Positions 8,392 through 61,946 of a stretch of DNA of 64,000 nt are shown piece after piece. Each line of letters begins with the position of its first letter. Within the stretch, counting starts at the first letter, position 1. The stretch is from a phage. A program made the position numbers and the translations under genes. Under the pieces are notes generated by a model, which saw only the letters and a program-made list of their open reading frames with translations, was not told where the DNA came from and ran no database searches. The stretch lies in sequence record PX418922.1. The stretch is one strand, 5' to 3'.

Positions 8392-8463
8392 GGCCCTGTA
8401 GCTCAATGGGAGAGCTGTCGGCTCATAACCGATAGGTAGCTGGATCGAAACCAGCCAGGGCCA
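8392..8463 (+). tRNA. tRNA-Met (anticodon CAT)
   Basis: Hand-folded cloverleaf: 7-bp acceptor GGCCCTG/CAGGGCC, D-stem GCTC/GAGC, anticodon loop CTCATAA, T-arm, encoded CCA. Confidence 0.7.
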
Positions 8464-8468
8464 CCAAC

Positions 8469-8540
8469 GTCTTTATGGTGTAATGGATAGCACAGGAGTC
8501 TTCTAAACTCTTAGTCAAGGTTCGATTCCTTGTAAAGACA
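8469..8540 (+). tRNA. tRNA-Arg (anticodon TCT)
   Basis: Hand-folded cloverleaf: acceptor GTCTTTA/TAAAGAC, anticodon loop CTTCTAA, T-loop TTCGATT, CCA encoded. Confidence 0.65.
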
Positions 8541-8739
8541 CCAGAACATTTTAACATGAATTAGCTCAAGTGATTTGAACCCACTACTGATCATGGTGGC
8601 AGAGAATGAGGCAAGTATGTCAGACATTATAAACAAAGGCCACGGTTATATTAGAAGACATAAATGCTCGAAGAGCACCGCTCGTGGAGAACGGGGGTTG
8701 GTGGAGTCACCATTCATGGTAAAATGTTTTAAAAAACTA

Positions 8740-8769
8740 TTGACAACTAACATTATTTTATGTTAGATT
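8740..8769 (+). promoter_or_regulatory. sigma70-like promoter (TTGACA-N17/18-TAGAT)
   Basis: CTATTGACAA family member directly upstream of tRNA-Ser. Confidence 0.5.
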
Positions 8770-8777
8770 ATAAGTAT

Positions 8778-8865
8778 GGAAGGGCAAATCGACGTGGCGA
8801 CGAAAACGGTCTTGAAAACCGCCGAGCTTGAAAGAGCCTTGGGAGTTCGACTCTCCCTCCTTCCG
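8778..8865 (+). tRNA. tRNA-Ser (anticodon TGA), long variable arm
   Basis: Acceptor GGAAGGG/TCCTTCC, anticodon loop CTTGAAA, long extra arm, T-loop TTCGACT, CCA encoded. Confidence 0.65.
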
Positions 8866-8872
8866 CCAGATT

Positions 8873-8955
8873 GGTAGATTGGTGAAATGGTAGCCACGAC
8901 AGTTTGCTAAACTGTAGTCGGAAACGGCGTGTAGGTTCGAGTCCTACATCTACCG
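8873..8955 (+). tRNA. tRNA-Ser (anticodon GCT), long variable arm
   Basis: Acceptor GGTAGAT/ATCTACC, anticodon stem ACAGT/ACTGT with loop TTGCTAA, extra arm, CCA encoded. Confidence 0.7.
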
Positions 8956-9088
8956 CCAAGTTCTTTTTAATATAGCTTACTTTAGCAGAGTAAATCTTCG
9001 GCAAGTGGCGGTAACCACTTTACCGATAACTCATAGTTAGTGGTGTGAACACTGGCTATTTTAAAAAGAATTTAAATATTAGCATTTA

Positions 9089-9173
9089 GGTGAGTTAATT
9101 CCGTAGGGGTAGCGGGGCAGACTGTAAATCTGTTATCATTGCGATTCGGGTGGTTCGACTCCATCACTCACCA
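9089..9173 (+). tRNA. tRNA-Tyr (anticodon GTA), long variable arm
   Basis: Acceptor GGTGAGT/ACTCACC, anticodon loop CTGTAAA, extra arm hairpin, CCA encoded. Confidence 0.7.
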
Positions 9174-9182
9174 CCAAATTAA

Positions 9183-9265
9183 GATGAGTTGGCTGAATGG
9201 TTTAAGCGGCGGACTGTTAATCCGTGTTCGAAAGAACGATATAGGTTCAAATCCTATACTCATCG
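9183..9265 (+). tRNA. type II (long-arm) tRNA, anticodon loop reads CTGTTAA (GTT by position; identity uncertain)
   Basis: Acceptor GATGAGT/ACTCATC, 3-bp D-stem, variable-arm hairpin GTTC-GAAA-GAAC, T-loop TTCAAAT, CCA encoded; a GTT anticodon with a long extra arm is atypical. Confidence 0.5.
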
Positions 9266-9275
9266 CCAGAATTAT

Positions 9276-9351
9276 GGACTTGTAGAGTTAAGGTAAACCC
9301 CCAGTCGCCAAGAGGCTTCTGGAATTGCAGGTATCGAATCCTGCCGAGTCC
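9276..9351 (+). tRNA. tRNA-like element (degenerate; possible pseudo-tRNA)
   Basis: Acceptor GGACTTG/CGAGTCC and T-arm-like GCAGG-TATCGAAT-CCTGC (8-nt loop) present but no canonical anticodon arm; no CCA. Confidence 0.3.
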
Positions 9352-9358
9352 CAGCTTT

Positions 9359-9430
9359 GCTCCTATAGTATAATGGCTATTACAACGGTTTTGTAATCCG
9401 TGGATCTCTGTTCGATTCAGAGTGGGAGCA
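9359..9430 (+). tRNA. tRNA-Thr (anticodon TGT), tentative
   Basis: Acceptor GCTCCTA/TGGGAGC, T-arm CTCTG-TTCGATT-CAGAG, CCA encoded; anticodon stem has a T-T at the loop-closing pair. Confidence 0.5.
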
Positions 9431-9707
9431 CCAACACAACATTAAGAGCACTGTGATTGATCGTCGTATCCTGTGCACAAGGTCTGTTCGAAAGACAGTG
9501 TTCTTAGTATTGTGTTGATCACACAAAAAGAGTTACCTGAAACTTGACCGGAGTAGGGTTGGATGGGGCAAAAGAAGAAGCGGCTCTCCCATCGACAGCA
9601 AGAAGAATAATATTTGACTTTGGTTTTGTATTATTTTAAGTTAGCTTACCGAACGTAGGGCTAGTCACCCAACGGGATACTCGTCACTGTCCCACTCAAT
9701 AAAACTA

Positions 9708-9737
9708 TTGACAACCAATAGTAAAATGTAGTATAGT
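9708..9737 (+). promoter_or_regulatory. sigma70-like promoter (TTGACA-N18-TATAGT)
   Basis: CTATTGACAA family member upstream of tRNA at 9749. Confidence 0.5.
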
Positions 9738-9748
9738 AAAGATGTAGG

Positions 9749-9819
9749 GCGTTCTTGGTGTAGCGGTAGCATTCCGTCCTTCCAAGTCGGCGGCACGAGT
9801 TCGATCCTCGTAGAACGCT
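9749..9819 (+). tRNA. tRNA-Gly (anticodon TCC), tentative
   Basis: Acceptor GCGTTCT/AGAACGC, T-arm ACGAG-TTCGATC-CTCGT, anticodon loop CTTCCAA, CCA encoded; one mismatch in anticodon stem. Confidence 0.5.
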
Positions 9820-9920
9820 CCAAATTATTTAATAAAGGGTTGCCAGAAAACTTTCTCTTTTACTCATGGTTTTCTCCTTCTCTCACACCTCTTCTGGTTG
9901 CCCTTCATTAAATGATTTAT

Positions 9921-9993
9921 TGGTTTGTAGTGTAGTCAGGTAGCACACGACACTTTGACTGTCGTAGGTTTGGTTCAAATCCAGACAGACCAG
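9921..9993 (+). tRNA. tRNA-Gln (anticodon TTG)
   Basis: Acceptor TGGTTTG/CAGACCA, anticodon stem CGACA/TGTCG with loop CTTTGAC, T-loop TTCAAAT, CCA encoded. Confidence 0.7.
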
Positions 9994-10001
9994 CCATATA
10001 A

Positions 10002-10075
10002 CGGAATTTAGCTCAGTTTGGTAGAGCATACGCTTTGGGAGCGTAGGGTCGCAGGTTCGAATCCTGCAATTCCGA
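10002..10075 (+). tRNA. tRNA-Pro (anticodon TGG)
   Basis: C1-G72 acceptor (CGGAATT/AATTCCG) as usual for bacterial tRNA-Pro, anticodon stem TACGC/GCGTA with loop TTTGGGA, T-loop TTCGAAT, CCA encoded. Confidence 0.7.
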
Positions 10076-10084
10076 CCAATTTAA

Positions 10085-10155
10085 TGTTTCGTAGTTCAAT
10101 GGTAGAACCCACGACTGATAATCGTGAGACACAAGTTCGATTCTTGTCGAAACAA
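10085..10155 (+). tRNA. tRNA-Ile (anticodon GAT)
   Basis: Acceptor TGTTTCG/CGAAACA, anticodon stem CACGA/TCGTG with loop CTGATAA, T-arm ACAAG-TTCGATT-CTTGT, CCA encoded. Confidence 0.65.
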
Positions 10156-10160
10156 CCAGT

Positions 10161-10230
10161 TTCCCGTTAGACTTACAGGATAAGAGTTCCACAGCTTATT
10201 GTGATGCTGGTTCGAATCCAGCACGGGATA
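10161..10230 (+). tRNA. tRNA-like element, anticodon arm not resolvable
   Basis: Acceptor (1-72 mismatch) and canonical T-arm GCTGG-TTCGAAT-CCAGC present; anticodon arm could not be folded by hand; no CCA. Confidence 0.3.
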
Positions 10231-10236
10231 CCTAAT

Positions 10237-10312
10237 AGCGGGATAGAGGAGTCTGGTCGTCCTCGCCAGTTTCATATGCTGGAGATCATTGGTTCAAATC
10301 CAATTCCCGCCT
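10237..10312 (+). tRNA. tRNA with CAT anticodon (Met, initiator or Ile2-type)
   Basis: Anticodon stem CCAGT/GCTGG with loop TTCATAT, D-stem GAGG/CCTC, T-arm ATTGG-TTCAAAT-CCAAT, CCA encoded; A1-C72 mismatch at acceptor end. Confidence 0.6.
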
Positions 10313-10430
10313 CCAAATATCGCTTGCCAGCGGTATCTTTGAAGACCTTGCCTGGTTCCTTCTAAGAGGAGGGGTGCGACTCCTTAACGCACAATTATAA
10401 TAAAGCATTTCAAATTAACAGTATTTATTA

Positions 10431-45440: not shown

Positions 45441-47465
45441 ATGAATTTAACAAGACCTAATAGTGCGATAGCCGATCTGGTAGAAGCTACTTATCGAAAA
45501 CGTCGCAGCTTTGAGGCAGGTTTTACATTACGTAATTCCCGTGAAGTTTTGCTGTTAGCAGCAGAAGGGAATTATTACCAATGGAAAGGAACTTTTCCTA
45601 AAGTAGTTCCAGCAAACTCTACGCCAGCCACCACAGGTGGTATTTCTTCCCTTGCATGGCAAAGTGTTGGGACCGCTGATGATATAGCAATTATCAATGC
45701 CAAGTTTACGGCAATGCAGCAACAGATTGATGATCTGTCGGAAACAATACCTGAAGCTGGTAAATCGGCTTATCAGATCGCACTTGATAATGGTTTTGTT
45801 GGAACAGAAGCACAATGGCTTGCTTCTTTGAAAGGGGATACTGGTGCTCAACTTAATATTAAAGGATCATTAGCAAGCACTAGTGAACTACCATCCACAG
45901 GTAACGTTGCAGGGGATGGTTATATCGTAGGTGATGTAATCTACGCTTGGGATGGTTCTGTTTGGAAACTTATTTCTTCTCTTGGACCAGAAGGTAAATC
46001 AGCTTACGAGATATGGTTGGCAGATGGTAATACAGGATCTGTTTATGATTTTCTTACCTCTATAAAAGGTGATAAAGGCGATGTTGGTCCTACAGGGCCA
46101 CAGGGAGCACCTGGTGTTAACGCCAACGGTTTTGATTATCGTGGGGATTTGCCTTCTACAAGTAACTTACCACAACCTAACTCTGAAAACGTAAGCCAAG
46201 CTTATTCTATCAATGGTAATCTTTATGTCTCTAATGGGACAGCTTGGGTCAACATGGGTAATATTGTTGGTCCTCAAGGTCCACAAGGTGAGGCAGGTAA
46301 AGACGGTCTAGATGGAACAGATGGAGATGAAGGGAAATCTGCATATCAAAGTTGGCTGGATGCTGGTAACGAAGGGACAGAAGTAGATTTTATTGCCTCA
46401 CTTAAAGGTCCAAAAGGAGACAAGGGTGATCAAGGAGAGCGAGGTCCACAAGGTGAACTAGGTCCGCAAGGACCAGTGGGTGCAACAGGATCAGGTTTAG
46501 AGATTATCGGGGTTCTGAACAGCGAAGCTGAACTTCCTCCTACTGGAGAAGTAGGTGATGCATATAAAATTAATAATGATTTGTATGTTTGGGTTCAAGA
46601 TGCTACGGAATGGATGAATGTTGGCAGTCTTGGAGGAACATCAATTACAGCTAAAGGGCATGTTCCGAACAGTGAAGCTCTCCCTGTTTACAATAACTAT
46701 GGCGATGCCTACTTAACTGAAGACACCAGTAATCTTTACATCTATACCTACGATCAAGACACCAATTCCGCATCTTTTGTTGACATGGGAAGTATTAAAG
46801 GCGACAAAGGTGAAAAAGGGGATAAAGGAGATAAGGGTGATCCTGGAACAAACGGAACCAACGGTACTAATGGGACCAACGGTAAGGACGGCGCACAGTG
46901 GTTTGTAGCAACAACTAATCCAGTCGCAGGTGATGGTGTTATCAATGATTACGCTTTCAATACTACCACTGGAGCAGTGTTTAAGAAAACAGATTCTTCT
47001 ACATGGACACTTATAGGAACTCTTCCTAGTATACCAGAAGCACCTCAAGACGGCTTGACGTATGGTCGTTCTGATGGGAACTGGATCGAAATATCAGGAT
47101 CAGATCCTACAGAAGCTATAACACCAACTAAAGTTACAGCAGGTTTCATGGAACTTGAAACAACTACTGCCAACTCTGGAGCATCTTGGACTCCTTCTGG
47201 AACTTCCAATATGTATGTTGTTACAGTAACTGACGCTCTGACAGTTGGAGCATGGCCTGGTGTCACTGGCTCTACAAAACCTAAAGCGTTTTCAGCAATG
47301 ATTTATTTGATTCAAGATACAACGGGACACACGGTTACACTAGATGCGTCTTATGGAGCACTAAATGATACAGAAATAGCAACTACTGCTAACGCAGTAA
47401 CAATTTTGCAATTAACGTATCCTGGTGTGGGTAATATCGTGGACATGGTTGTTGTAACACGATAA
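45441..47465 (+). CDS. tail fibre protein with collagen-like Gly-X-Y repeats
   Basis: GPQGPQGEAGKDG, KGPKGDKGDQGERGPQGELGPQGPVG and KGDKGEKGDKGDKGDPGTNGTNGTNGTNGKDG blocks; N-terminal anchor motif YQWKGTFPKVVPANSTPATTGG; three GKSAY...W(L)..GN internal repeats. Confidence 0.65.
   Translation: MNLTRPNSAIADLVEATYRKRRSFEAGFTLRNSREVLLLAAEGNYYQWKGTFPKVVPANSTPATTGGISSLAWQSVGTADDIAIINAKFTAMQQQIDDLSETIPEAGKSAYQIALDNGFVGTEAQWLASLKGDTGAQLNIKGSLASTSELPSTGNVAGDGYIVGDVIYAWDGSVWKLISSLGPEGKSAYEIWLADGNTGSVYDFLTSIKGDKGDVGPTGPQGAPGVNANGFDYRGDLPSTSNLPQPNSENVSQAYSINGNLYVSNGTAWVNMGNIVGPQGPQGEAGKDGLDGTDGDEGKSAYQSWLDAGNEGTEVDFIASLKGPKGDKGDQGERGPQGELGPQGPVGATGSGLEIIGVLNSEAELPPTGEVGDAYKINNDLYVWVQDATEWMNVGSLGGTSITAKGHVPNSEALPVYNNYGDAYLTEDTSNLYIYTYDQDTNSASFVDMGSIKGDKGEKGDKGDKGDPGTNGTNGTNGTNGKDGAQWFVATTNPVAGDGVINDYAFNTTTGAVFKKTDSSTWTLIGTLPSIPEAPQDGLTYGRSDGNWIEISGSDPTEAITPTKVTAGFMELETTTANSGASWTPSGTSNMYVVTVTDALTVGAWPGVTGSTKPKAFSAMIYLIQDTTGHTVTLDASYGALNDTEIATTANAVTILQLTYPGVGNIVDMVVVTR
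46800..46892 (+). repeat. Gly-X-Y codon tandem repeat inside tail fibre gene
   Basis: Direct reading: ggc gac aaa ggt gaa aaa ggg gat aaa gga gat aag ggt gat cct gga aca aac gga acc aac ggt act aat ggg acc aac ggt aag gac ggc. Confidence 0.7.
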
Positions 47466-47506: not shown

Positions 47507-50182
47507 ATGTTTCCAATTCCAATATTTACTATTATGACCAGCACTGGTGTCGTTCCTCTGCCAGCAGGTATTGTTAAAAAAGTAATCACTTTAGATTACC
47601 CAGATAATGCTGGGAATTCTAATAGCAGTTTAGCAATTTTGCTTAATGATGGTAGATTGTTTACTCAAGGCGCAAACCTTTTTGGTGAGATTGCAGATGG
47701 AACTCGTAGTGCACGATTCAATAATTTCCACTTGGCTTCTACTGTAGTAGCGGATGTGTTTACCGCAGATCGTTGTTTTGTTATTAAAACTAACAGTGGA
47801 GGATGGCAATATTCAGGATTGACAGCAGGATTGGTAGGATCTATAGCAGCAGGTGGTACGGACGCATGTGTAACTACTTGGACCAGCTTTCCATCTGTAA
47901 TAACAGGGACTATCTCTTTAGCTAATCTTAAAGAGGTTAAGGGAGGATATAACAACACTCTCTGGTTAATGAATAGTGGTGTTCTTTATGGATCAGGTCA
48001 AAACACAGTAGGCAGTTTAGGTGCAAGTACTACTAACGAAGTTTCTACTCCTCGTCAGATAACAAGTGCAGCAGTTGCTTTTGATGCAGGTTACAACCAA
48101 TGCTCTTATGTCAACAATGTGGGAACCTTGCGTGTTTGTGGAGCTAGTAAAGGTTTAGCAGGTAATAATAACACAACAACAGCTTTTGTCAATGCTAAGA
48201 TATCCGCTACTGAAACAGTGTATGTCAAAGATTACATCAATACAGTTTCCCAGACAATAGTTGTAGGAGATACCTCCGGTGGCACGGGTACAGTAAACTA
48301 CTTATATGTTAGGTCTAATACAGAAACAACCTACACTAAACTGGATACCTTTGCAGCAGGTTTCTCAACATGGAAGTTTCCACCAAGCCGCCACTCTTTT
48401 TTCGTTGGGATCAATAATTCCTTGTGGGCTATTGGTAAGAACTACACTGCAAACTTAGGTTTGGGGTATGATTCTGCGAGCGGAGATCCACTCCAAGTGG
48501 GAAAACCAGTTAAACCTGAAGGAGTGGGTTCTTGGGATATAAACAAGCTCACAAGCGTTCATACGCTGAATATGGATGTTACTAACCAATTAGGTTATCA
48601 AGGAACCTTTTTCGTTTATAATGGAGATATGTATTATTCCGGTATTTGGAAAGATGGGAAAGCCTCGTATCTGTTCAATAGCGGTCTAAACTATAATAAA
48701 TTCACACCAATAGCAAGCTCCGTGATTACGGGTGATATTCTGGCAACTGGCTTAACTACAGATTCTTTAGGAATTTGTATTGTAGGTGGAACTAAACAGT
48801 TGACACATTCTGTTAGCCCAGAAGGAGGTAAACTTTTCAATATTAAATACACTTCTTCTGCCCCTGCAAACATGACAATATCATCTACTGGTTTAATGAC
48901 TTTCCATGCAGAAGGTGGTTTTGATGCAGGTATGACAGCCTTAAACGCTGAAGGAACAACTTTATCAGATACCTCTGGAGGATATGCTTCAACATTGAGT
49001 GTTTACACCCCTAGCTTATCTGCGATGGATGTAGGAACAACACAAACAATGGTAGCAGAAATAACGCCAACAGGAGCAGCAAGCTTACCTGGCATGGTTG
49101 TTGAGTATTTCTCTAATGACCCTACGGTAGCAACAGTTGACCCCGTTACAGGCGTTATTACAGCGGTTGCTGATGGAGGTTGTCGTATCGGTTGTAGAGC
49201 AACTTATCAAGGTGTGGTAACTGCCGAAGATAGTTCTTATCTCACAGTGAATGCTGTGGTGATTGTGATGGATTATGATTTGACGCAAGAAACTATTCCG
49301 GCGGATGTAAAGGTCAACAGGAGTAACCGTTATGCCAGGGCTTCTGGAGATATCCTTGTACCTACAGAGAGTTCTGCTCCCGTAGCACCTTTAGAATATG
49401 TTGGTACAACTCCACAAGGTAGACGTGTTGTAGCAGCCAACCGTACACATATCTTTATCAACAATAACTTGACAACAGCTTCCCCGTGGTTGAAGACGAA
49501 CTTGACAGTCACAGCATCAACAATCAACTCTCCGGTTGGAACTACGGCTAACACTTACAAGTTAACACCTTCTACAACTTCAGGACAACATATTTTATCA
49601 GCAGTGAATACAGCTTCTGATATTACAGCAGGTAAGCACTGGGCGGCATCCGTATTCTTGAAGCCAGATGGGATCACTAAAGTGAAACTCAAATTGACTT
49701 CAGGAGATGAGATTAACGAAGGGACTTATGATCTTGTAGCTGGAACATTTACAGGTGCAGATGCAAACATAATCGATATGGGGAATGGTTGGTATCGTGT
49801 AATTCTACACAAAGTGACAGTTGCCAAACAAGCATCTATAACCTATGAGATTATAGCTTTGAATGCAAGTGGATCAGACACTTTCGCAGGAGATGGTACG
49901 GCAGGTCTTATTGCTTGGGTTCCACAGCTTGAGATGGGGGATATGACAAATCCAGTTTGGGCGGGGACACCATTTGTTTGTTCTTATGCACGAGACACTA
50001 CCAGTGCTGTTACCTTCACTATTCCTAAGAATGGACATACTGGCGTGGACATTTACCACACTGATGGTACTGTGCAACGAGAGGTCTTCACTGGTACAGC
50101 TACAACTTGGATGTTGACGTTCACCGCCGCAAGTGCGGATTGGGGATCGAAGTTCATTACAGGTTTGAAATATTACGACTAA
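47507..50182 (+). CDS. large tail fibre protein (beta-rich, Ig-like/adhesin-like)
   Basis: 891 aa, Thr/Ser/Gly/Val-rich; last gene of rightward late operon. Confidence 0.5.
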   Translation: MFPIPIFTIMTSTGVVPLPAGIVKKVITLDYPDNAGNSNSSLAILLNDGRLFTQGANLFGEIADGTRSARFNNFHLASTVVADVFTADRCFVIKTNSGGWQYSGLTAGLVGSIAAGGTDACVTTWTSFPSVITGTISLANLKEVKGGYNNTLWLMNSGVLYGSGQNTVGSLGASTTNEVSTPRQITSAAVAFDAGYNQCSYVNNVGTLRVCGASKGLAGNNNTTTAFVNAKISATETVYVKDYINTVSQTIVVGDTSGGTGTVNYLYVRSNTETTYTKLDTFAAGFSTWKFPPSRHSFFVGINNSLWAIGKNYTANLGLGYDSASGDPLQVGKPVKPEGVGSWDINKLTSVHTLNMDVTNQLGYQGTFFVYNGDMYYSGIWKDGKASYLFNSGLNYNKFTPIASSVITGDILATGLTTDSLGICIVGGTKQLTHSVSPEGGKLFNIKYTSSAPANMTISSTGLMTFHAEGGFDAGMTALNAEGTTLSDTSGGYASTLSVYTPSLSAMDVGTTQTMVAEITPTGAASLPGMVVEYFSNDPTVATVDPVTGVITAVADGGCRIGCRATYQGVVTAEDSSYLTVNAVVIVMDYDLTQETIPADVKVNRSNRYARASGDILVPTESSAPVAPLEYVGTTPQGRRVVAANRTHIFINNNLTTASPWLKTNLTVTASTINSPVGTTANTYKLTPSTTSGQHILSAVNTASDITAGKHWAASVFLKPDGITKVKLKLTSGDEINEGTYDLVAGTFTGADANIIDMGNGWYRVILHKVTVAKQASITYEIIALNASGSDTFAGDGTAGLIAWVPQLEMGDMTNPVWAGTPFVCSYARDTTSAVTFTIPKNGHTGVDIYHTDGTVQREVFTGTATTWMLTFTAASADWGSKFITGLKYYD

Positions 50183-50187
50183 TAAAA

Positions 50188-50218
50188 AAGGGAACCTTTG
50201 CGGGTTCCCTTTTCTTTT
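50188..50218. terminator. bidirectional rho-independent terminator between convergent operons
   Basis: AAGGGAACC-TTTGCG-GGTTCCCTT hairpin flanked by AATAAAAAA upstream and TTCTTTT downstream. Confidence 0.7.
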
Positions 50219-50245
50219 ATAAAAACTCTTTATAAATCAATAAGA

Positions 50246-51133
50246 TCAGAATGGAATATCATCGTCGAAGTCCATTGGAGGTTCTTCTTGATTACTTGGA
50301 GTTGGTTCTGGTTGTGGTTCAGGTTTCTTAACTTCTTTCTTCTCTTCTTTCTTAGGCTGTTCTGCGGAACCACGAATGGCAGCAGCAACTTTATCAGACA
50401 GAGCCAGAACTTTACGAGCAGAATCAATCAGATCTTCTACAGATACAGTCTTAATAGTATGGTCTTTACAAGCATTGAGGATAGCGTGACCAACAGATGC
50501 CCCAAGATCATAATCATTAATATCAACGCCACGAGATTCAGCAATTTCCGATTTCAGCGTGACAGTTGCAGATTGAACAACCCCAGCGATATCGAAAGCA
50601 TCGCCTTTAACACCATTACGAATCAGTTCCAGTGCACCATTTACTGCGTGACCAGTTTCCAGACCTACAGTATCACGTTTTTTATAGGATTGCTTAGGAG
50701 CAGCATCGTTGGAACCTTTATTGCCAGAAGATTTGTTAGACTTCTGAACACCATCGGTAGACAATACTGTAATACGAGATTTTTTAGTATTGTAGTAAGT
50801 TTTACCGCCTTTATTATCAACGCGATCAATATCAATACTTACTTCTACACCTTTTTCAATAGTGATCCAATTATCGCCTTCTTTGACTTGCAGGTTTTCA
50901 TAACCTTCTTTCAGTTCAATGTCACCAAGAGAAATCCAAACACCTTTCTCATCTGGTTTAGCACCTTTCTCTTTCAGAACAAGAGAAGCTCGGTGAGTTG
51001 AAACAATCGTTTTTCCTTCCCAATGGAAGGTTTTAGGTTCAGCGAATTTATCCAGTTTAACGTAGTCTACGATACCAGTTGCATAAGTTACGGTTTTGCC
51101 TTTACGATCAGTTTCAGTATTAATTACGGACAT
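50246..51133 (-). CDS. ssDNA-binding-like protein with E. coli SSB-type C-terminal tip
   Basis: C-terminus ...EEPPMDFDDDIPF resembles the E. coli SSB tail end (PMDFDDDIPF); Pro/Glu/Lys-rich linker precedes it; N-terminal fold not identified. Confidence 0.55.
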   Translation of the reverse strand: MSVINTETDRKGKTVTYATGIVDYVKLDKFAEPKTFHWEGKTIVSTHRASLVLKEKGAKPDEKGVWISLGDIELKEGYENLQVKEGDNWITIEKGVEVSIDIDRVDNKGGKTYYNTKKSRITVLSTDGVQKSNKSSGNKGSNDAAPKQSYKKRDTVGLETGHAVNGALELIRNGVKGDAFDIAGVVQSATVTLKSEIAESRGVDINDYDLGASVGHAILNACKDHTIKTVSVEDLIDSARKVLALSDKVAAAIRGSAEQPKKEEKKEVKKPEPQPEPTPSNQEEPPMDFDDDIPF

Positions 51134-51149
51134 TATTATCTCCTCTACA

Positions 51150-51542
51150 TTACATTAATTTTGCACAGAAAGAGCGGAGTCTTTCCATATCATCTTGCTC
51201 TAACAGGTATTTACCTTTACCTATTCCAACTCCAATTTCACCATTAGGAAAATGAACTATTTGCACTGGGAAACCTCCGAGTTTAATTGTGGCAGCTTTG
51301 CCTTCTTCGTCTATAACGTTTCGGATTGTATCTTGCAGTGAAATGAATTCTTTGTTTGTAACAGTGGTTTCAATTATTTCAGATGTTTCGACACGAGCAG
51401 TTAGCTTCTTGTTTCCACCTTGAATAACCAAAATTTGAAAATAAAAAGAGTTGTCAAGACCTACAACATTTTTCTCAACTAGTGTCAAACTGGTATAGTT
51501 TCCATAAACAGTTTCAACAGCTATCTTAGAACGTTCAGTCAT
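51150..51542 (-). CDS. hypothetical protein
   Basis: ORF. Confidence 0.4.
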   Translation of the reverse strand: MTERSKIAVETVYGNYTSLTLVEKNVVGLDNSFYFQILVIQGGNKKLTARVETSEIIETTVTNKEFISLQDTIRNVIDEEGKAATIKLGGFPVQIVHFPNGEIGVGIGKGKYLLEQDDMERLRSFCAKLM

Positions 51543-51587
51543 TGAATGCTATCCTATCATAAAATGTTTAATATTGTCAAGCTTTAA

Positions 51588-52181
51588 TTACCAAGGAATA
51601 TCATCTTCTTCCAATCTGGTATCTACTTGAGGTGGACGTGGAACCTTAACCTCTTTCACAAAACGAAGATATGGGAAACGTGTAGCAATTTTAATAACAT
51701 GTTTGGCATCTTCTCTAACATCTTTGTGCAAGAAGCAGATCCCTGTTTCCAAGGTTGTTTCAAAATCTTTAGAATAATAACAGTCCTTCCCATCAAATGC
51801 AGCCTGGCAGATGGACAGATCGAACTCATTTAGAAAGGTTGTCATTACGCTTGGTTCCATAATCATAAGGTTGCAAAGCTGACCATCACGTTCAAACTCA
51901 AAAACGTGTTTAAGACCAGTAACACCTTCATAATTGTCAGAAGCCTCTTTGTTCCCTAGTTTACGAATATTGGTTCCCATTAAAGCAGATGCAATTAATC
52001 CTTGTATTTGTTCTTCAGTCCGATGTGCAGGAAGGGATGTATAGAAATCCAGATCACGTCCAGCAATATCAAGAATACGCCAATCACGAACAGCACCGCC
52101 AGCCAAGACAGAATTAGGATCAGCGATCTTTAATATGGTAAGAATTTCTTTGGCAATATTGATTTGTTTTGATTTAGTCAT
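51588..52181 (-). CDS. Pol-beta superfamily nucleotidyltransferase (CCA-adding/poly(A) polymerase head-domain-like) with SSB-like C-terminal tip
   Basis: LAGGAVRDWRILDIAGRDLDFYT matches the GGxVRD...DxD signature of class II tRNA nucleotidyltransferases; C-terminus ends EEDDIPW. Confidence 0.5.
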   Translation of the reverse strand: MTKSKQINIAKEILTILKIADPNSVLAGGAVRDWRILDIAGRDLDFYTSLPAHRTEEQIQGLIASALMGTNIRKLGNKEASDNYEGVTGLKHVFEFERDGQLCNLMIMEPSVMTTFLNEFDLSICQAAFDGKDCYYSKDFETTLETGICFLHKDVREDAKHVIKIATRFPYLRFVKEVKVPRPPQVDTRLEEDDIPW

Positions 52182-58523: not shown

Positions 58524-58802
58524 TTAAAATGGTTCGTTAGTCTCCATCATATATTCTGCTTCTAGTTCTTCCATGTGCTTTCTAAATTGGAAAGCAATTT
58601 CTGCTACAGTTACATTTAAATCTTTTTCAAAAACTTCTGTAGAGCCTTCATAAAAACGAATACCGTCAATTAAAAGCCCTCCGTGGTAATCCCAATCACT
58701 TTCACGAGAAAGCGGGTTAGGCTCTTCATAATAGTAATCCACCTCCACGACTAAAGCTTTCCCGTTACGAGTGGTGTATTCAAAATCAAAAGTGTTAATC
58801 AT
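58524..58802 (-). CDS. hypothetical protein
   Basis: ORF. Confidence 0.4.
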   Translation of the reverse strand: MINTFDFEYTTRNGKALVVEVDYYYEEPNPLSRESDWDYHGGLLIDGIRFYEGSTEVFEKDLNVTVAEIAFQFRKHMEELEAEYMMETNEPF

Positions 58803-59746
58803 TATAGCTCCTCAAATAAAAGTCTACGACGCTCATTCAACACATCAATGTGATAATGAGTCCTGACATACTTAGCTAATGCTAATCCTTTCTCCATGCA
58901 AACATCGGGAGCACTTAATAAGTATTCCGTAATATCTTTCCACTCGGAAGGTGTTTCAGCAAAGAATAACAAATCTTTAAACTCTTGTGTATGATAATTC
59001 TCACGAGGAGAACAGATCAAAGGTAAACCCTTAGCACCTGCCTCAAGAATTTTAAGATTGCTTTTTGCATTATTAAACACGTTATCAAGCAATGGCGCAA
59101 GACTGATTTGATGACCATCGTAAGATTCCATGTAGTTGGCATATGGTCTTACACCTTCATAAACACAAGTTGGTGCTACATTTTCTCTGATCACAGACCA
59201 TTCACGACTACTTAAAACTTCAGAACCCCTACGAAAACCACATATTGTAAGATCTTTACCAAAATCGGGCAAGATAGCCAAATCTTGTTTATGTGTTTCA
59301 CTTCCAGCCCAGACTAATGGAGTTTTGGAGTAGCGATCACGGGTCAACACAAATTGACCTTCATCGTAAGGAAGACCATTAGGGATTATGTGCACATTAT
59401 CATTGTATTGTGAAAGTTCAACTTGCAAAGCAGGTGTCGTAGTTGTAACAAGATCGCTGTGCTCTAAAAACCATTTTAAATGTTCACGAATACCTGATTC
59501 AAAAATACCTTCTAACATGTGTCCTTTTGGAATAACTAAAGAGTCATCCAAATCCATAACCATTTTAAAGCCTAGGTTTTTAAGGGCTAAAAAGCCCTCT
59601 TTACCTTTTGTTGGCACTCCGTTAAAAACGAAAACGTTGTGTTTAGGTTGTGAAGAGAACTGCCTTGAGTAAGGCAGCACTACCCTATGGAAATCGCAGA
59701 CACTATAATTGATTCCATTACGATTGTCAAGAATTATTTGTCCCAT
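58802..59746 (-). CDS. glycosyltransferase, paralog A (candidate DNA sugar transferase)
   Basis: Clear paralog of next gene: CDFHRVVLPY / CDYHRIVIPF, VMDLDD / VVDLDD, PLVWAGSETH / PVVWAGGASH, KSNLKILEAGAKGLPLICS / KSNLKILEAGAKGIPIVCS. Confidence 0.55.
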   Translation of the reverse strand: MGQIILDNRNGINYSVCDFHRVVLPYSRQFSSQPKHNVFVFNGVPTKGKEGFLALKNLGFKMVMDLDDSLVIPKGHMLEGIFESGIREHLKWFLEHSDLVTTTTPALQVELSQYNDNVHIIPNGLPYDEGQFVLTRDRYSKTPLVWAGSETHKQDLAILPDFGKDLTICGFRRGSEVLSSREWSVIRENVAPTCVYEGVRPYANYMESYDGHQISLAPLLDNVFNNAKSNLKILEAGAKGLPLICSPRENYHTQEFKDLLFFAETPSEWKDITEYLLSAPDVCMEKGLALAKYVRTHYHIDVLNERRRLLFEEL

Positions 59747-59753
59747 ACTTCAC

Positions 59754-60701
59754 CTACAAACTTTCAATAACCTGGCGTCGCAACTCGTTTGCATCTGCCA
59801 GATTATAATGTGTTCGAACATGTTCAGCCAAGAACAAGCCACGATCTTCCCGATAGTTTGGATTGCGAAGAAGCTTAACAATTTCGTAATGCCATTCTGC
59901 TTTATTCTCTGCGTAAGCAACAGCGCGAGCATCTACAGGGTTAAAATAAGGTAATACCTTAGAACAAACAATTGGAATACCTTTTGCTCCAGCTTCCAGG
60001 ATTTTGAGATTACTTTTACAATTATTAAAATCGTTATCTACCAAAGGAGCTATAGCAATAGCATGACTTTCGTAAACACTCATGTAATTATCTAAATCTT
60101 TTACAGCGGCTTTATATTTGGCATTTGGTAAATTTCTGCGAATCTTAATCCACTCTTGTCCCGTGATGCTTTGTGATGTTTCATATCCCGCAATAGTAAG
60201 AAGTTCATCATCGAAAGTATTAGAGACTAGTCGTAAGTCTGGTTCGTGACTAGCACCGCCAGCCCATACAACAGGGGTACCGGATGAACGATCATTTGAC
60301 AAAGTGAATTGTCCGCTATCAAAAGGAAGTGCATTTCGGATCACAACAACATTCCTATTTAAGTGACGGATCTTATATGCCAAATATTCCGTAGTCACAA
60401 TAACCACATCAGCAAGCTTAACCATAGCTACAATAGCATGAGTGTTTGACTCGTATAGACTTGCTAAATAATGTTCTGGATTAAGTTGGTAAAAATCATC
60501 TAAGTCTACAACAACCTTAACACCTTGACGTTTCAAAGATAAAACGTATTCTGCACCTTTAGAGTGGATACGGTTAAACACAACAACATCTTTCTTAGGT
60601 TGAATATTATTGTTGTTAAATGGTATAACAATACGATGATAGTCACAACCGCTGTGAGGTTTTGCATCAATTTTTAGTTTAGACCATTTTTTATTTGACA
60701 T
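59754..60701 (-). CDS. glycosyltransferase, paralog B (candidate DNA sugar transferase)
   Basis: As above; tandem duplicate, 315 aa. Confidence 0.55.
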   Translation of the reverse strand: MSNKKWSKLKIDAKPHSGCDYHRIVIPFNNNNIQPKKDVVVFNRIHSKGAEYVLSLKRQGVKVVVDLDDFYQLNPEHYLASLYESNTHAIVAMVKLADVVIVTTEYLAYKIRHLNRNVVVIRNALPFDSGQFTLSNDRSSGTPVVWAGGASHEPDLRLVSNTFDDELLTIAGYETSQSITGQEWIKIRRNLPNAKYKAAVKDLDNYMSVYESHAIAIAPLVDNDFNNCKSNLKILEAGAKGIPIVCSKVLPYFNPVDARAVAYAENKAEWHYEIVKLLRNPNYREDRGLFLAEHVRTHYNLADANELRRQVIESL

Positions 60702-61374
60702 GTGCTAGTGCCTCCTCATAGGAAATTCGGATTTTCCCATTTTTAATATCCTCTAAAGATGCTTTATATTCTTCCCAGTTAATCCCAATAGCAGCCTCTT
60801 TCTCTTCTTTTGTCAGGTTAGCAAAAGGCATAGGATTGTTTCCAAAAACATCGTCTGGGTGGATATAAGCCATGATACGAAGTGGACAAGGTGTTGCCTG
60901 AATACCATGATTCAAACCAGCAGCTTGCAAACGGTGTCCCCATTCAGCATCTTCAAAACCATAACCGTGAGTGTAAGGACGGAAATAACCCATCTTCTCA
61001 ACAACGGAACGAGAATACATTGCAAATTGACACATTGCAAGTTCCCAGAGAATAACTTCTCCTTTGCTTCCAACAACTTTATCTTTGAAATACTCCGGCA
61101 TACCAAAGAAATCCCATCCTCCAGAGACAGCTTGATCTACAAAGTATGTTTCCCATCCCTCCATGACTGGGTAGCAATCATCGTCAAAAATAAACCAATA
61201 ATCATAACCTTCTTCATAAAACTGGTGCATAAGTTCATTCCTGGCATAAGCTACACCTTTACGATCTGGATCGTTGAATACTCGAAAATCTGCACGTGGA
61301 TCTGTTACAAGGTAGTCTTTAAGTGGACGGACACCTACAGTGATAACACCCACTCCGATTTTAATATTTTCCAT
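60691..61374 (-). CDS. GT-A fold glycosyltransferase-like protein
   Basis: DxD-type motif in YWFIFDDDCYP; N-terminal beta-alpha IGVGVITVGVRP; overlaps paralog B start. Confidence 0.5.
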   Translation of the reverse strand: MENIKIGVGVITVGVRPLKDYLVTDPRADFRVFNDPDRKGVAYARNELMHQFYEEGYDYWFIFDDDCYPVMEGWETYFVDQAVSGGWDFFGMPEYFKDKVVGSKGEVILWELAMCQFAMYSRSVVEKMGYFRPYTHGYGFEDAEWGHRLQAAGLNHGIQATPCPLRIMAYIHPDDVFGNNPMPFANLTKEEKEAAIGINWEEYKASLEDIKNGKIRISYEEALAHVK

Positions 61375-61382
61375 TTTCTCTC

Positions 61383-61946
61383 CTAAATAGTTTTACTGTG
61401 ATCATGACAGTGTAATAAATGATGTATAGACCGTTGAGGATCTGTTTGACCTAATCTGTAAATGTGAAACAGATACATTCCCCGCATCAATCCTAACCTC
61501 TTTCCTTTTTCATGTAAAGTGCGAGAGAAAATTAAGTCGAATTGGATAGATTTTTCTTCGAAAGGAATTTCATTCCACAATGATTTTCTAAAAAGCAAAA
61601 AGAAACCTGCCAGAGGTGTTCCGAAAGGAACTTCTTCAACACTTACTTTATGATATTCCCTTGCAATCTTAGCATATTCTATATGGTTTAGAATATCGGG
61701 ATCATCGTTAATTTGGTTAGAGAAAAGCTGATAACCACTACCTAACCTGTTACAAGTTGCACCTATTACATCAAAAGGCGGGTTTGACATAACAAGCTCT
61801 TCAAGCATAGATGGTTGATCAGGTAGGAGGAACATTGTATCGGTATCTCTTAAACACACCCAACTATCGTCTGGAAGAACGGCAATAGCTTCATTGATAG
61901 CCTTGCCGATATTTCCTGTCAGATAGGGAGTAATATAATAAATCAT
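61383..61946 (-). CDS. nucleotide-sugar transferase-like protein (putative)
   Basis: VCLRDTDTMF DxD-like motif; 187 aa. Confidence 0.4.
   Translation of the reverse strand: MIYYITPYLTGNIGKAINEAIAVLPDDSWVCLRDTDTMFLLPDQPSMLEELVMSNPPFDVIGATCNRLGSGYQLFSNQINDDPDILNHIEYAKIAREYHKVSVEEVPFGTPLAGFFLLFRKSLWNEIPFEEKSIQFDLIFSRTLHEKGKRLGLMRGMYLFHIYRLGQTDPQRSIHHLLHCHDHSKTI

What the first reader, a model, noticed from the sequence alone, without database searches (positions are those of the whole stretch)
50246..52181. Two nearby proteins end in an E. coli SSB-type tip (DDDIPF and EDDIPW)
The 295-aa protein ends ...PMDFDDDIPF, the same terminal residues as the E. coli SSB acidic tip that docks partner proteins. 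Two genes upstream in the same operon, the Pol-beta nucleotidyltransferase ends ...EEDDIPW. Two unrelated proteins carrying the same docking peptide suggests a shared recruitment code for the phage replisome, or competition with host SSB for its clients.
Basis: partly seen in the sequence, partly recalled or inferred. Interest (0 to 1): 0.7.

Follow-up and report, generated by a model that had tools for sequence, protein, structure and literature searches.

The report
SSB docking tails on phage proteins
In this E. coli phage, an unusual single-stranded-DNA-binding protein carries the same C-terminal docking peptide as the host protein SSB, and a small nucleotidyltransferase two genes upstream carries a tryptophan-ending version; this suggests that phages attach such tails to different replication proteins, but no binding partner has been identified.

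Summary
The window is a phAPEC8-like Phapecoctavirus. ORF 50246-51133(-) ends PSNQEEPPMDFDDDIPF, whose last 10 residues are those of E. coli SSB. ORF 51588-52181(-) ends EEDDIPW. No other gene in a 99%-identical complete genome ends this way (about 0.0002 expected).

The 295-aa protein belongs to an uncharacterised family. It has a predicted OB fold, a conserved four-helix domain, a disordered linker and the tip. It shows no sequence homology to canonical SSB or T7 gp2.5 outside the tail. The tip ends in Pro-Phe in all 103 free-tip relatives.

The 197-aa protein is a small Pol-beta-fold nucleotidyltransferase with an intact GG...DxD...E signature. Its D-I-P-W tip follows a variable linker. The tip is kept down to 36% identity, always ends in W, and is absent from phi92.

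In relatives the tip is followed by a conserved cap, APIGLQY... This cap occurs on a canonical SSB and on a primase-helicase. The window holds a frameshifted remnant of it.

My best reading is a phage SSB plugged into SSB-tail pockets, with a related but distinct tail on the NTase. This is analogous to the T7 gp2.5 and gp4 tails. Binding partners are inferred, not shown.

The parts
50246..51133 (-). Gene for the 295-aa non-canonical SSB-like protein (phrog_4477), stop codon included
   Evidence: ORF. PHROG hit 2.7e-97 with no Pfam domain. Annotated as SSB in some GenBank records. AF2 model with mean pLDDT 82.
50759..51133 (-). Residues 1-125: beta-rich domain predicted to be an OB fold
50375..50668 (-). 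Residues 156-253: four-helix domain with two conserved GHA(x)(L)N motifs; the most conserved part of the family; function unknown
50276..50374 (-). Residues 254-286: disordered Lys/Glu/Pro-rich linker
   Evidence: pLDDT 43-71. Length and sequence vary across homologues.
50249..50275 (-). Residues 287-295, MDFDDDIPF: SSB-type acidic tip, identical to the last 9 residues of E. coli SSB
   Evidence: The D-F-D-D-D-I-P-F consensus is kept in the family down to about 30% identity, and all 103 free-tip homologues end in PF. The last 39 nt match a plasmid ssb gene at 36 of 39 positions, including the stop codon.
50227..50248 (-). Stop codon plus a decayed remnant of the 'APIGLQY...' cap that follows the tip in relatives
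   Evidence: Alignment with Phapecoctavirus ECO340P2: window TTC TGA TCT TAT TGA versus TT- TGC TCC TAT TGG A... The window differs by one extra base, which puts TGA directly after Phe, and the rest is deleted.
50186..50213 (.). Hairpin with T-runs on both sides: bidirectional terminator-like site between the convergent tail gene and the SSB-like gene
   Evidence: and the sequence. A terminator is annotated here in phAPEC8 records.
51150..51542 (-). 130-aa conserved protein of unknown function between the two tip-bearing genes
   Evidence: ORF. phrog_16560, function unknown. The same position is kept in phi92 (gp157), Citrobacter phage Tr1 and metagenomic contig L011.
51588..52181 (-). Gene for the 197-aa stand-alone Pol-beta-fold nucleotidyltransferase, stop codon included
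   Evidence: ORF. phrog_10174 and phrog_1614, both annotated nucleotidyltransferase. Weak hit to the Pfam PolyA_pol head domain. Foldseek hits to TUT7, TdT, MenT1 and a class I CCA enzyme, with probability up to 0.99 but E about 0.01.
52047..52100 (-). Residues 28-45, GGAVRDWRILDIAGRDLD: nucleotidyltransferase active-site signature (GG ... DxD)
   Evidence: G28, G29, R32, W34, D43 and D45 are invariant in 39 family members with 24-67% identity to the window protein. E95 is also invariant in close homologues.
51606..51656 (-). Residues 176-192: variable Pro-rich linker before the NTase tip
   Evidence: Alignment shows variation in length and sequence. pLDDT is below 50.
51591..51605 (-). Residues 193-197, DDIPW: SSB-tip-like C-terminus ending in Trp
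   Evidence: DDIPW is kept in 9 of 10 homologues at 58-97% identity (the tenth ends DDSFPW) and in P0136. NDIPW occurs in P0242 and KDIPW in Citrobacter phage Tr1 (36% identity). The tip is absent in phi92 gp158 and in Vibrio phage homologues.

Best explanation
The 295-aa protein is the ssDNA-binding protein of this phAPEC8-like phage, built on a non-canonical scaffold. It has an OB-fold domain, a conserved four-helix domain of unknown role, and a roughly 40-residue disordered linker ending in the tip MDFDDDIPF, which is identical to the host's.

When the protein coats phage ssDNA, the free tip docks into SSB-tail pockets. These are a hydrophobic pocket for Pro-Phe surrounded by a basic rim. 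The pockets could lie on host SSB-interacting proteins, on phage replisome proteins, or both. This connects phage ssDNA to replication and repair enzymes.

The nucleotidyltransferase two genes upstream acquired a related tip, (D)DIPW, on a flexible linker within the Phapecoctavirus lineage and its near relatives. It most likely uses this tip as a short docking motif for a pocket of the same type. That would bring the enzyme to the same hub or let it compete there. Because the tip always ends in W rather than F, it probably has its own partner or affinity.

Shown: the sequences, their conservation, the predicted folds, the intact catalytic signature, the gene order, and the occurrence of the tip module on other protein types. 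Inferred: ssDNA binding, docking and every partner.
For: - Tip identity with E. coli SSB.
- Only two such C-termini in about 150 kb, against 1.7e-4 expected.
- Disordered linker plus tip, the same layout as bacterial SSB.
- The tip ends in PF in 103 of 103 free-tip homologues, down to about 30% identity.
- No canonical SSB OB domain in the 110 kb that could be scanned. The 3A1_SA_NWU record (OR062524.1) lists this gene as its only SSB.
- The gene sits in the block containing DNA polymerase, methyltransferase and primase-helicase.
- NTase: GG...DxD is invariant across the family and E95 is invariant in close homologues. The fold is Pol-beta-like. The DIPW tip is conserved to 36% identity while the linker varies.
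- The tip module is portable. It occurs on a canonical SSB (Vibrio phage Valp1) and on a primase-helicase (Klebsiella phage K54_rec3).
- Precedents: T7 gp2.5 and gp4 both end in an acidic tail with a terminal Phe, and these tails bind T7 DNA polymerase (papers cited). HK620 SSB needs its last six residues to recruit the phage protein Sak4. SSB-Ct pockets are described.
Against: - No binding data and no complex model exist. Neither ssDNA binding nor any partner is shown.
- The most conserved part of the protein is the helical domain, not the OB domain, so ssDNA coating may not be its only or main job.
- F177 of SSB is considered invariant and fills the pocket. A Trp may not fit the known host pockets.
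- The NTase tip is missing in phi92, so it is not needed for the enzyme's core function.
- In many relatives the SSB-like tip is not terminal but is capped by 15-17 residues. This is hard to reconcile with recognition of a free C-terminus.
Confidence: 0.6

Rival explanations
1. Host takeover by competition. The main role of one or both tips is to act as a decoy. An abundant phage SSB and the tip-bearing NTase occupy the SSB-tail pockets of host enzymes (Exo I, RecJ, RecQ, PriA, UDG, Pol III chi). This pulls them off host SSB, either to shut down host replication and repair or to protect phage DNA ends.
For: The last 10 residues are identical to host SSB rather than a phage-specific variant. 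The tail-coding DNA is nearly identical to that of E. coli plasmid ssb genes. The same tip is used by a phage without its own DNA polymerase (Valp1), so host proteins are plausible targets.
Against: This is not exclusive of recruitment and is equally untested. The phage encodes its own polymerase, primase-helicase, helicase and nucleases. The NTase ends in W, which departs from the invariant F of the host motif.
Confidence: 0.25
2. The NTase tail does not dock onto other proteins' SSB pockets. Instead it is an acidic, nucleic-acid-mimicking tail. It either folds back on the enzyme's own substrate site as an autoinhibitor, or binds the ssDNA groove of the phage SSB-like protein when that protein is off DNA. 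T7 gp2.5 and E. coli SSB tails do this with their own OB folds.
For: T7 gp2.5 tails compete with ssDNA for the protein's own binding surface (title cited), and the E. coli SSB tail binds its own OB fold weakly (discussion quoted). About 10% of the wider NTase family (23 of 229) ends acidic plus aromatic, with varied sequences such as DEGLF, EVDF, DDDF and SDEW. This fits a generic electrostatic or aromatic tail better than one precise motif.
Against: In the Phapecoctavirus group the exact I-P-W is kept even where the acidic residues are lost (KPKDIPW in Tr1). This argues for specific recognition of I-P-aromatic rather than charge alone.
Confidence: 0.15
3. The NTase is an anti-defence enzyme of the Gad2 type (Gad2 is a nucleotidyltransferase-domain inhibitor of the Gabija system). 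The tip delivers it to ssDNA-associated host defence or repair machinery rather than to the replisome.
For: About 45% of family members carry precomputed hits to Pfam PF26128 'Gad2'. Gad2 is a phage protein with a predicted NTase domain that blocks Gabija. The enzyme is not needed for CCA addition to phage tRNAs, because all 10 tRNA genes in the window already encode CCA.
Against: The Gad2 hits are labelled weak or faint and could not be reproduced with the local Pfam library for any member tested. Gad2 is 400 aa and this protein is 197 aa. The gene lies in a conserved replication block, not an accessory island.
Confidence: 0.12
4. The NTase tip is a coincidental or neutral C-terminal sequence with no function.
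For: It is absent in phi92 and in distant homologues, so it is dispensable for the fold and the catalytic core.
Against: The expected number of such endings per genome is about 2e-4. The tip is invariant across homologues at 58-97% identity and recognisable at 36%, while the adjacent linker changes freely.
Confidence: 0.04

Closest known systems
E. coli SSB C-terminal tip (SSB-Ct, MDFDDDIPF) and its client proteins
   Same: The 295-aa protein has the same last 10 residues at a free C-terminus, after a disordered linker and an OB-fold domain. The NTase keeps D-D-I-P-aromatic at a free C-terminus.
   Different: The OB domain has no detectable sequence homology to Pfam or NCBIfam SSB models. An extra conserved helical domain is present. 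The linker is Lys/Glu/Pro-rich rather than Gly/Gln-rich. The NTase is not an SSB and ends in W instead of the invariant F.
Bacteriophage T7 gp2.5 (SSB) and gp4 (primase-helicase) acidic C-terminal tails that bind T7 DNA polymerase
   Same: Two unrelated proteins of one phage replication module end in similar acidic tails with a terminal aromatic residue: T7 has ...EADEDGDF and ...SNDTDF. In a Klebsiella phage the SSB-type tip module sits on the primase-helicase itself.
   Different: The motif differs: host-type D-D-I-P-F/W versus T7 D-x-D-F. There is no homology between the 295-aa family and gp2.5. The second tail here is on a nucleotidyltransferase, not a helicase. The partner is unknown.
Canonical SSBs of plasmids and phages that keep a host-like tail (P1 Ssb, plasmid SSBs, HK620 SSB with Sak4)
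   Same: A mobile-element SSB carries an enterobacterial tip. The tail-coding DNA is 36 of 39 nt identical to a plasmid ssb. The HK620 SSB tail recruits a phage protein.
   Different: Those proteins are ordinary PF00436 SSBs. This one belongs to an uncharacterised family (phrog_4477) whose BFVD neighbours are all unnamed.
Class II nucleotidyltransferases (CCA-adding enzyme, poly(A) polymerase head domain) and small Pol-beta-fold NTases such as MenT toxins
   Same: It has the GGAVRD...DLD signature and a Pol-beta fold. The size is similar to MenT1.
   Different: The Pfam score is below the gathering threshold (13.9 versus 23 bits). There are no neck, body or tail domains. The substrate is unknown. 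The phage tRNA genes already encode CCA.
Gad2 (Pfam PF26128), anti-Gabija phage protein with an NTase domain
   Same: Many family members carry precomputed PF26128 hits. Both are phage-encoded NTase-domain proteins.
   Different: The hits are weak or faint and were not reproduced here. The protein is half the length of Gad2 and lies in a replication module.

Membership tests
Bacterial-type SSB (Pfam PF00436 / NCBIfam PRK09010) | Sequence match of the OB domain to the family model | tested here: not met
   No Pfam SSB hit. The NCBIfam hit covers only the tail, at 22.8 bits against a cutoff of 260. hhalign against a canonical SSB aligns only the last 14 residues. The PDB profile search matches only the tail.
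Bacterial-type SSB (Pfam PF00436 / NCBIfam PRK09010) | OB fold as the DNA-binding core | tested here: met
Bacterial-type SSB (Pfam PF00436 / NCBIfam PRK09010) | Disordered linker ending in an acidic tip with C-terminal Pro-Phe | tested here: met
   Residues 254-295 have low pLDDT. The tip MDFDDDIPF is identical to that of E. coli SSB.
Bacterial-type SSB (Pfam PF00436 / NCBIfam PRK09010) | High-affinity ssDNA binding and homo-oligomerisation | not testable with these tools
   Needs EMSA or fluorescence titration and SEC-MALS.
SSB-Ct docking motif | D-D-D-I-P-F at the extreme C-terminus with a free carboxylate, with Phe filling a hydrophobic pocket bordered by basic residues | tested here: met
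   This applies to the 295-aa protein. The sequence and the stop codon directly after Phe are seen. Actual docking was not tested.
SSB-Ct docking motif | Terminal residue is Phe (regarded as invariant in SSBs) | tested here: not met
   This applies to the NTase. It ends in Trp in all 13 tip-bearing relatives. D-D-I-P and the free C-terminus are kept.
T7 gp2.5-like SSB | Homology to gp2.5 | tested here: not met
Class II nucleotidyltransferase (CCA-adding / poly(A) polymerase, Pfam PF01743) | Head-domain signature GGxVRD ... DxD and a score above the Pfam gathering threshold | tested here: inconclusive
   The signature is present and GG/R/DxD are invariant across the family. The score is 13.9 bits against a cutoff of 23, with the best family member at E = 0.0011.
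Class II nucleotidyltransferase (CCA-adding / poly(A) polymerase, Pfam PF01743) | Neck, body and tail domains that hold the tRNA or RNA 3' end | tested here: not met
   The protein is only 197 aa. The C-terminal half has no match and was poorly modelled.
Gad2 (Pfam PF26128) | Significant match to the Gad2 model | tested here: inconclusive
   Precomputed hits exist on about 45% of relatives, labelled weak or faint. No hit was found for the window protein or for eight flagged relatives in the local Pfam scan.

The most novel reading that the evidence does not exclude
C-terminal SSB-type peptides act as a portable, exchangeable address label in phage replication modules. The same short module is attached to a non-canonical SSB, to canonical SSBs, to a primase-helicase and, in a Trp-ending version, to a nucleotidyltransferase. 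The F- and W-ending labels address different pockets. A conserved 15-17-residue cap (APIGLQY...h-H/Y-A/C-h) buries the supposedly essential free carboxylate. The cap either switches the label off until it is removed or adds a second, probably host, partner. The cap is gained and lost between nearly identical phages, and the window carries a frameshifted remnant.
Probability: 0.3. Interest if true: 0.75.

Novelty: new variant of a known kind. Interest (0 to 1): 0.55.

Why it matters
SSB tails are the main hub through which bacterial replication, repair and recombination enzymes find ssDNA, and they are being pursued as an antibacterial target. Three things would follow if the reading is right:
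- If a phage puts a host-identical tail on an unrelated OB-fold protein and a Trp-ending variant on an enzyme, then the SSB-Ct pocket code is used more widely than on SSBs. Such tails could then help predict which unknown phage proteins work at ssDNA.
- It would give a tractable coliphage system for asking which host clients a lytic phage needs or neutralises.
- The capped tip found in relatives questions the rule that the C-terminal carboxylate must be free.

The practical value now is an annotation fix. phrog_4477 is probably the SSB of the Stephanstirmvirinae and related phages.

Tried and rejected
- Pfam, NCBIfam and PDB sequence searches for the 295-aa protein gave only tail matches. One amusing set of tail matches was PDB myosin chains that end in the same SSB-type tail.
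- hhalign against a canonical SSB and against T7 gp2.5 found no domain homology.
- BFVD returned only unnamed phage proteins.
- The NTase structure model was usable only for residues 1-120, so the C-terminal half remains uninterpreted. Foldseek hits are weak (E about 0.01).
- The Gad2 link could not be reproduced locally.
- Literature searches for the tip on non-SSB proteins, for DDIPW and for the APIGLQY cap found nothing relevant. Three T7 papers could not be opened, so the T7 statements rest on titles in reference lists, on the sequences, and on general knowledge.
- For the cap I considered a beta-clamp-binding motif (QL[SD]LF, QLxLxL, QxxMxF). I rejected it because the hydrophobic positions do not line up.
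- I also considered a Lon degron. The SulA C-terminus LSGLKIHSNLYH resembles PIGLQYGRNFLHCF at 4 of 10 positions, but not the other cap variants. I keep this only as a weak idea.
- A tRNA-maturation role for the NTase is less likely, because all ten phage tRNA genes already end in CCA.
- Technical limit: loci fetched in parallel calls did not reach the Python sandbox. The last 41 kb of the reference genome was therefore scanned for tips only by DNA pattern, and it was not scanned for a canonical SSB domain.
Full report
**What is there**

ORF 50246..51133(-), 295 aa, ends ...PEPTPSNQEEPPMDFDDDIPF followed by TGA. ORF 51588..52181(-), 197 aa, ends ...PPQVDTRLEEDDIPW followed by TAA. A 130-aa ORF (51150..51542) lies between them. 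All three are on the minus strand. The only terminator-like hairpin is at 50186-50213, after the 295-aa gene. One transcription unit is therefore plausible but not demonstrated.

The E. coli SSB chain in the PDB ends ...PSNEPPMDFDDDIPF. The last 10 residues are identical, and the last 15 match apart from a two-residue insertion.

**Is it more than chance?**

- Of 371 stop-to-stop ORFs of at least 50 codons in the window, only these two end in an acidic stretch plus [ILVMF]-P-[FWY].
- The window is 99% identical to complete Phapecoctavirus genomes (phAPEC8 group, Stephanstirmvirinae).
- The remaining roughly 88 kb of one such genome (OR062524.1) has no further gene with such an end. This comes from an ORF scan of the first 46.5 kb and a DNA pattern scan of the last 41 kb, with the window as positive control.
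- From the local amino-acid composition, 1.7e-4 genes ending DDIP[FW] are expected per 282 genes.
- Both ends are conserved in orthologues while the residues before them vary.

**The 295-aa protein**

- It has no Pfam domain and falls in PHROG 4477, function unknown. Only its last 40-50 residues hit SSB PHROGs and the NCBIfam SSB model.
- A profile of 51 homologues matches solved structures only through the tail.
- hhalign against a canonical phage SSB aligns only the last 14 residues. Against T7 gp2.5 it finds nothing.
- An AlphaFold2 model built on 51 homologues (mean pLDDT 82) shows five parts: a beta domain (1-125), a disordered stretch (133-149), a four-helix domain (156-253), a disordered Lys/Glu/Pro-rich linker and the tip.
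- The most conserved residues of the family lie in the helical domain, in two GHA(x)(L)N motifs. The protein may therefore do more than coat DNA.
- BFVD neighbours are all uncharacterised phage proteins.
- No canonical SSB OB domain is encoded in the 110 kb I could scan. Of the 20 GenBank records listed for this region, five name this gene an SSB (e.g. 3A1_SA_NWU, ESCO37, ESCO25, ABPW7); the others, including phAPEC8, call it hypothetical. In the 3A1_SA_NWU record it is the only gene so named.
- I conclude that it is very probably the phage's SSB, on a scaffold not homologous at sequence level to the known SSB families.

**The SSB-like tip in the family**

Among 120 homologues with 29-99% identity to the window protein, 103 have a free tip and all 103 end in Pro-Phe. 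The usual ending is (E)PP[MV]DFDDDIPF. That is the enterobacterial SSB consensus, not a phage-specific variant.

At the DNA level the last 39 nt are 36 of 39 identical to the ssb gene of an E. coli plasmid, with the same codon choices and stop codon. This hints that tail-coding segments are exchanged between ssb genes of mobile elements. The match is short, however, and was selected from many alleles.

**The 197-aa protein**

- It carries GGAVRD-x9-DLD. G28, G29, R32, W34, D43 and D45 are invariant in 39 family members with 24-67% identity to it, and E95 is invariant in the close set.
- Pfam gives only a sub-threshold match to the poly(A) polymerase head domain.
- The model is reliable only for residues 1-120. 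That part resembles Pol-beta-fold nucleotidyltransferases such as TUT7, TdT, MenT1 and a class I CCA enzyme, but weakly.
- The family is large: 1056 representatives at E of 1e-3 or better, mostly stand-alone proteins of about 190 aa.
- About 45% of members carry precomputed hits to Pfam PF26128 (Gad2, the anti-Gabija protein with an NTase domain). These hits are labelled weak or faint, and I could not reproduce them.
- The ten tRNA genes of the window all encode their CCA end. CCA addition to phage tRNAs is therefore not required, although repair of damaged ends is not excluded.

**The NTase tip**

- Nine of the ten homologues at 58-97% identity end in DDIPW and the tenth ends DDSFPW, after a linker that varies in length and sequence.
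- A metagenomic relative with the same gene order ends PDDIPW.
- A 305-aa member from a different kind of phage ends NDIPW.
- Citrobacter phage Tr1 (36% identity) ends KPKDIPW.
- phi92 gp158 (37% identity, same gene order) ends NNEEFKI, and Vibrio phage homologues also lack a tip.
- The tip is therefore a lineage-specific addition under selection, and it always ends in Trp.
- Phe177 of SSB is described as invariant and as the residue that fills the partner's pocket. The two tips are related but not interchangeable by sequence, which weakens the claim of one shared docking peptide.
- In the wider family, 23 of 229 members end acidic plus aromatic, against 4 of 175 long ORFs of this phage, two of which are the genes in question. 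The family count is inflated by the related DDIPW group.

**A portable module and a cap**

Seventeen of the 120 SSB-like homologues continue past the tip with a conserved 15-17 residues, for example ...DDDIPF-APIGLQYGRNFLHCF. These include the near-identical Phapecoctavirus ECO340P2, phi92 gp156 and Tr1.

The same cap follows the tip in two other protein types:
- An ordinary SSB of Vibrio phage Valp1 (...EPPMDFDDDIPFAPIGLQYPAIVHCM). Valp1 is an N15-like protelomerase phage with no DNA polymerase.
- The primase-helicase of Klebsiella phage vB_Kpn_K54_rec3 (...DDDTPFAPIGLQYAKHAIYVI). It is only distantly related to the window's primase-helicase.

In the window, the bases after the Phe codon align with the start of the cap-coding sequence. 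They differ by one extra base, which creates TGA immediately after Phe, and the rest is deleted. About a dozen Phapecoctavirus records keep the cap, and several have a homing-endonuclease gene just downstream. I found no literature on this cap.

The cap shows that the tip is a movable module used on different replication proteins. It also conflicts with the usual requirement for a free C-terminal carboxylate.

**How it most likely works**

I commit to the following, with confidence about 0.6. The 295-aa protein coats phage ssDNA and presents a host-identical tip on a flexible linker. The tip docks into SSB-Ct-type pockets. The NTase uses its D-I-P-W end as a docking motif for a pocket of the same kind, with its own specificity.

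Precedents:
- T7 gp2.5 and gp4 are unrelated proteins that both end in acidic tails with a terminal Phe (...EADEDGDF and ...SNDTDF). Their tails bind T7 DNA polymerase (papers cited, and general knowledge of the Richardson laboratory's work).
- The HK620 SSB tail is needed to recruit the phage annealase Sak4.

I cannot decide whether the partners here are phage proteins, host SSB clients or both. Identity to the host tip, and its use by a phage that depends on the host replisome, point to host proteins. The phage's own complete replisome and the primase-helicase case point to phage proteins.

**Rivals**

- Competition or decoy against host SSB clients (0.25; not exclusive of the main reading).
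- An autoinhibitory or SSB-groove-binding acidic tail on the NTase (0.15).
- A Gad2-like anti-defence enzyme delivered by the tip (0.12).
- A functionless coincidence (0.04).

**Novelty and limits**

Host-like tails on mobile-element SSBs and shared acidic tails in T7 are known. New here are:
- the uncharacterised OB-plus-helical scaffold that carries the tail;
- a conserved Trp-ending tip on a nucleotidyltransferase;
- in relatives, the cap and its occurrence on three protein types.

Everything about binding is inference. The fold assignments rest on predictions, and the NTase C-terminal half is unmodelled. I rate this a new variant of a known kind, with interest 0.55.

Noticed in passing
L004:1501-1611 (ECO340P2); L006:3526-4473 (phi92 gp156); L007:3564-4535 (Tr1); L005:1994-2581 (Vibrio phage Valp1 SSB); L009:518-2581 (Klebsiella phage K54_rec3 primase-helicase); window remnant 50227-50248: A conserved 15-17-aa cap ([AS]P[ILV]GLQY..., ending hydrophobic, e.g. 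FLHCF, ALYA, HAIYVI) directly follows the SSB tip. It occurs on the SSB-like protein of many relatives, on a canonical SSB and on a primase-helicase. It buries the C-terminal carboxylate, is polymorphic between near-identical phages, and I found no description of it in the literature.
   Followed up: partly
relatives of window 50150-50250: H121-H129 (e.g. Mt1B1_P17, nieznany, nepoznato, PsgM04F): Several Phapecoctavirus genomes have an extra endonuclease gene (an insertion of roughly 430-480 bp, probably a homing endonuclease) immediately downstream of the SSB-like gene. The 3' end of this gene is therefore an indel hot spot, which may explain gain and loss of the cap.
   Followed up: no
window 58524-58802 (-): The 92-aa ORF just downstream of the primase-helicase ends ...EYMMETNEPF. 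This is a weakly tip-like end (acidic, Pro-Phe). Its conservation in homologues was not checked.
   Followed up: no
SulA C-terminus (L013:1911-2420) versus the cap: The cap PIGLQYGRNFLHCF loosely resembles the Lon degron at the SulA C-terminus (LSGLKIHSNLYH: G, L, N and H shared). Other cap variants fit less well. This is speculative.
   Followed up: partly
window 50375-50668 (-): The helical domain of the SSB-like protein contains a duplicated, almost invariant motif (ETGHAVNGALEL and GASVGHAILNAC). It is more conserved than the OB domain, and its function is unknown.
   Followed up: no
window 8392-10315 (+): A cluster of ten tRNA genes (Met, Arg, Ser, Asn, Thr, Gly, Gln, Pro, Ile, Met), all with a genomically encoded 3' CCA.
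   Followed up: yes
window 58802-61946 (-); L002:30995-34273: The record annotates four consecutive genes next to the primase-helicase as glycosyltransferases. A full dTDP-rhamnose pathway (rmlABCD-like) is annotated elsewhere in the genome. This could indicate DNA or surface-glycan modification.
   Followed up: no
window 45441-47465 (+): The 674-aa tail spike/fibre protein contains long collagen-like Gly-X-Y runs (e.g. GPQGPQGEAGKDGLDGTDGDEGKS, GDKGEKGDKGDKGDPGTNGTNGTNGTNGKDG).
   Followed up: no
window about 50000-50250: GC skew changes sign here, at the point where plus-strand structural genes converge with the minus-strand replication genes at a shared bidirectional terminator.
   Followed up: no
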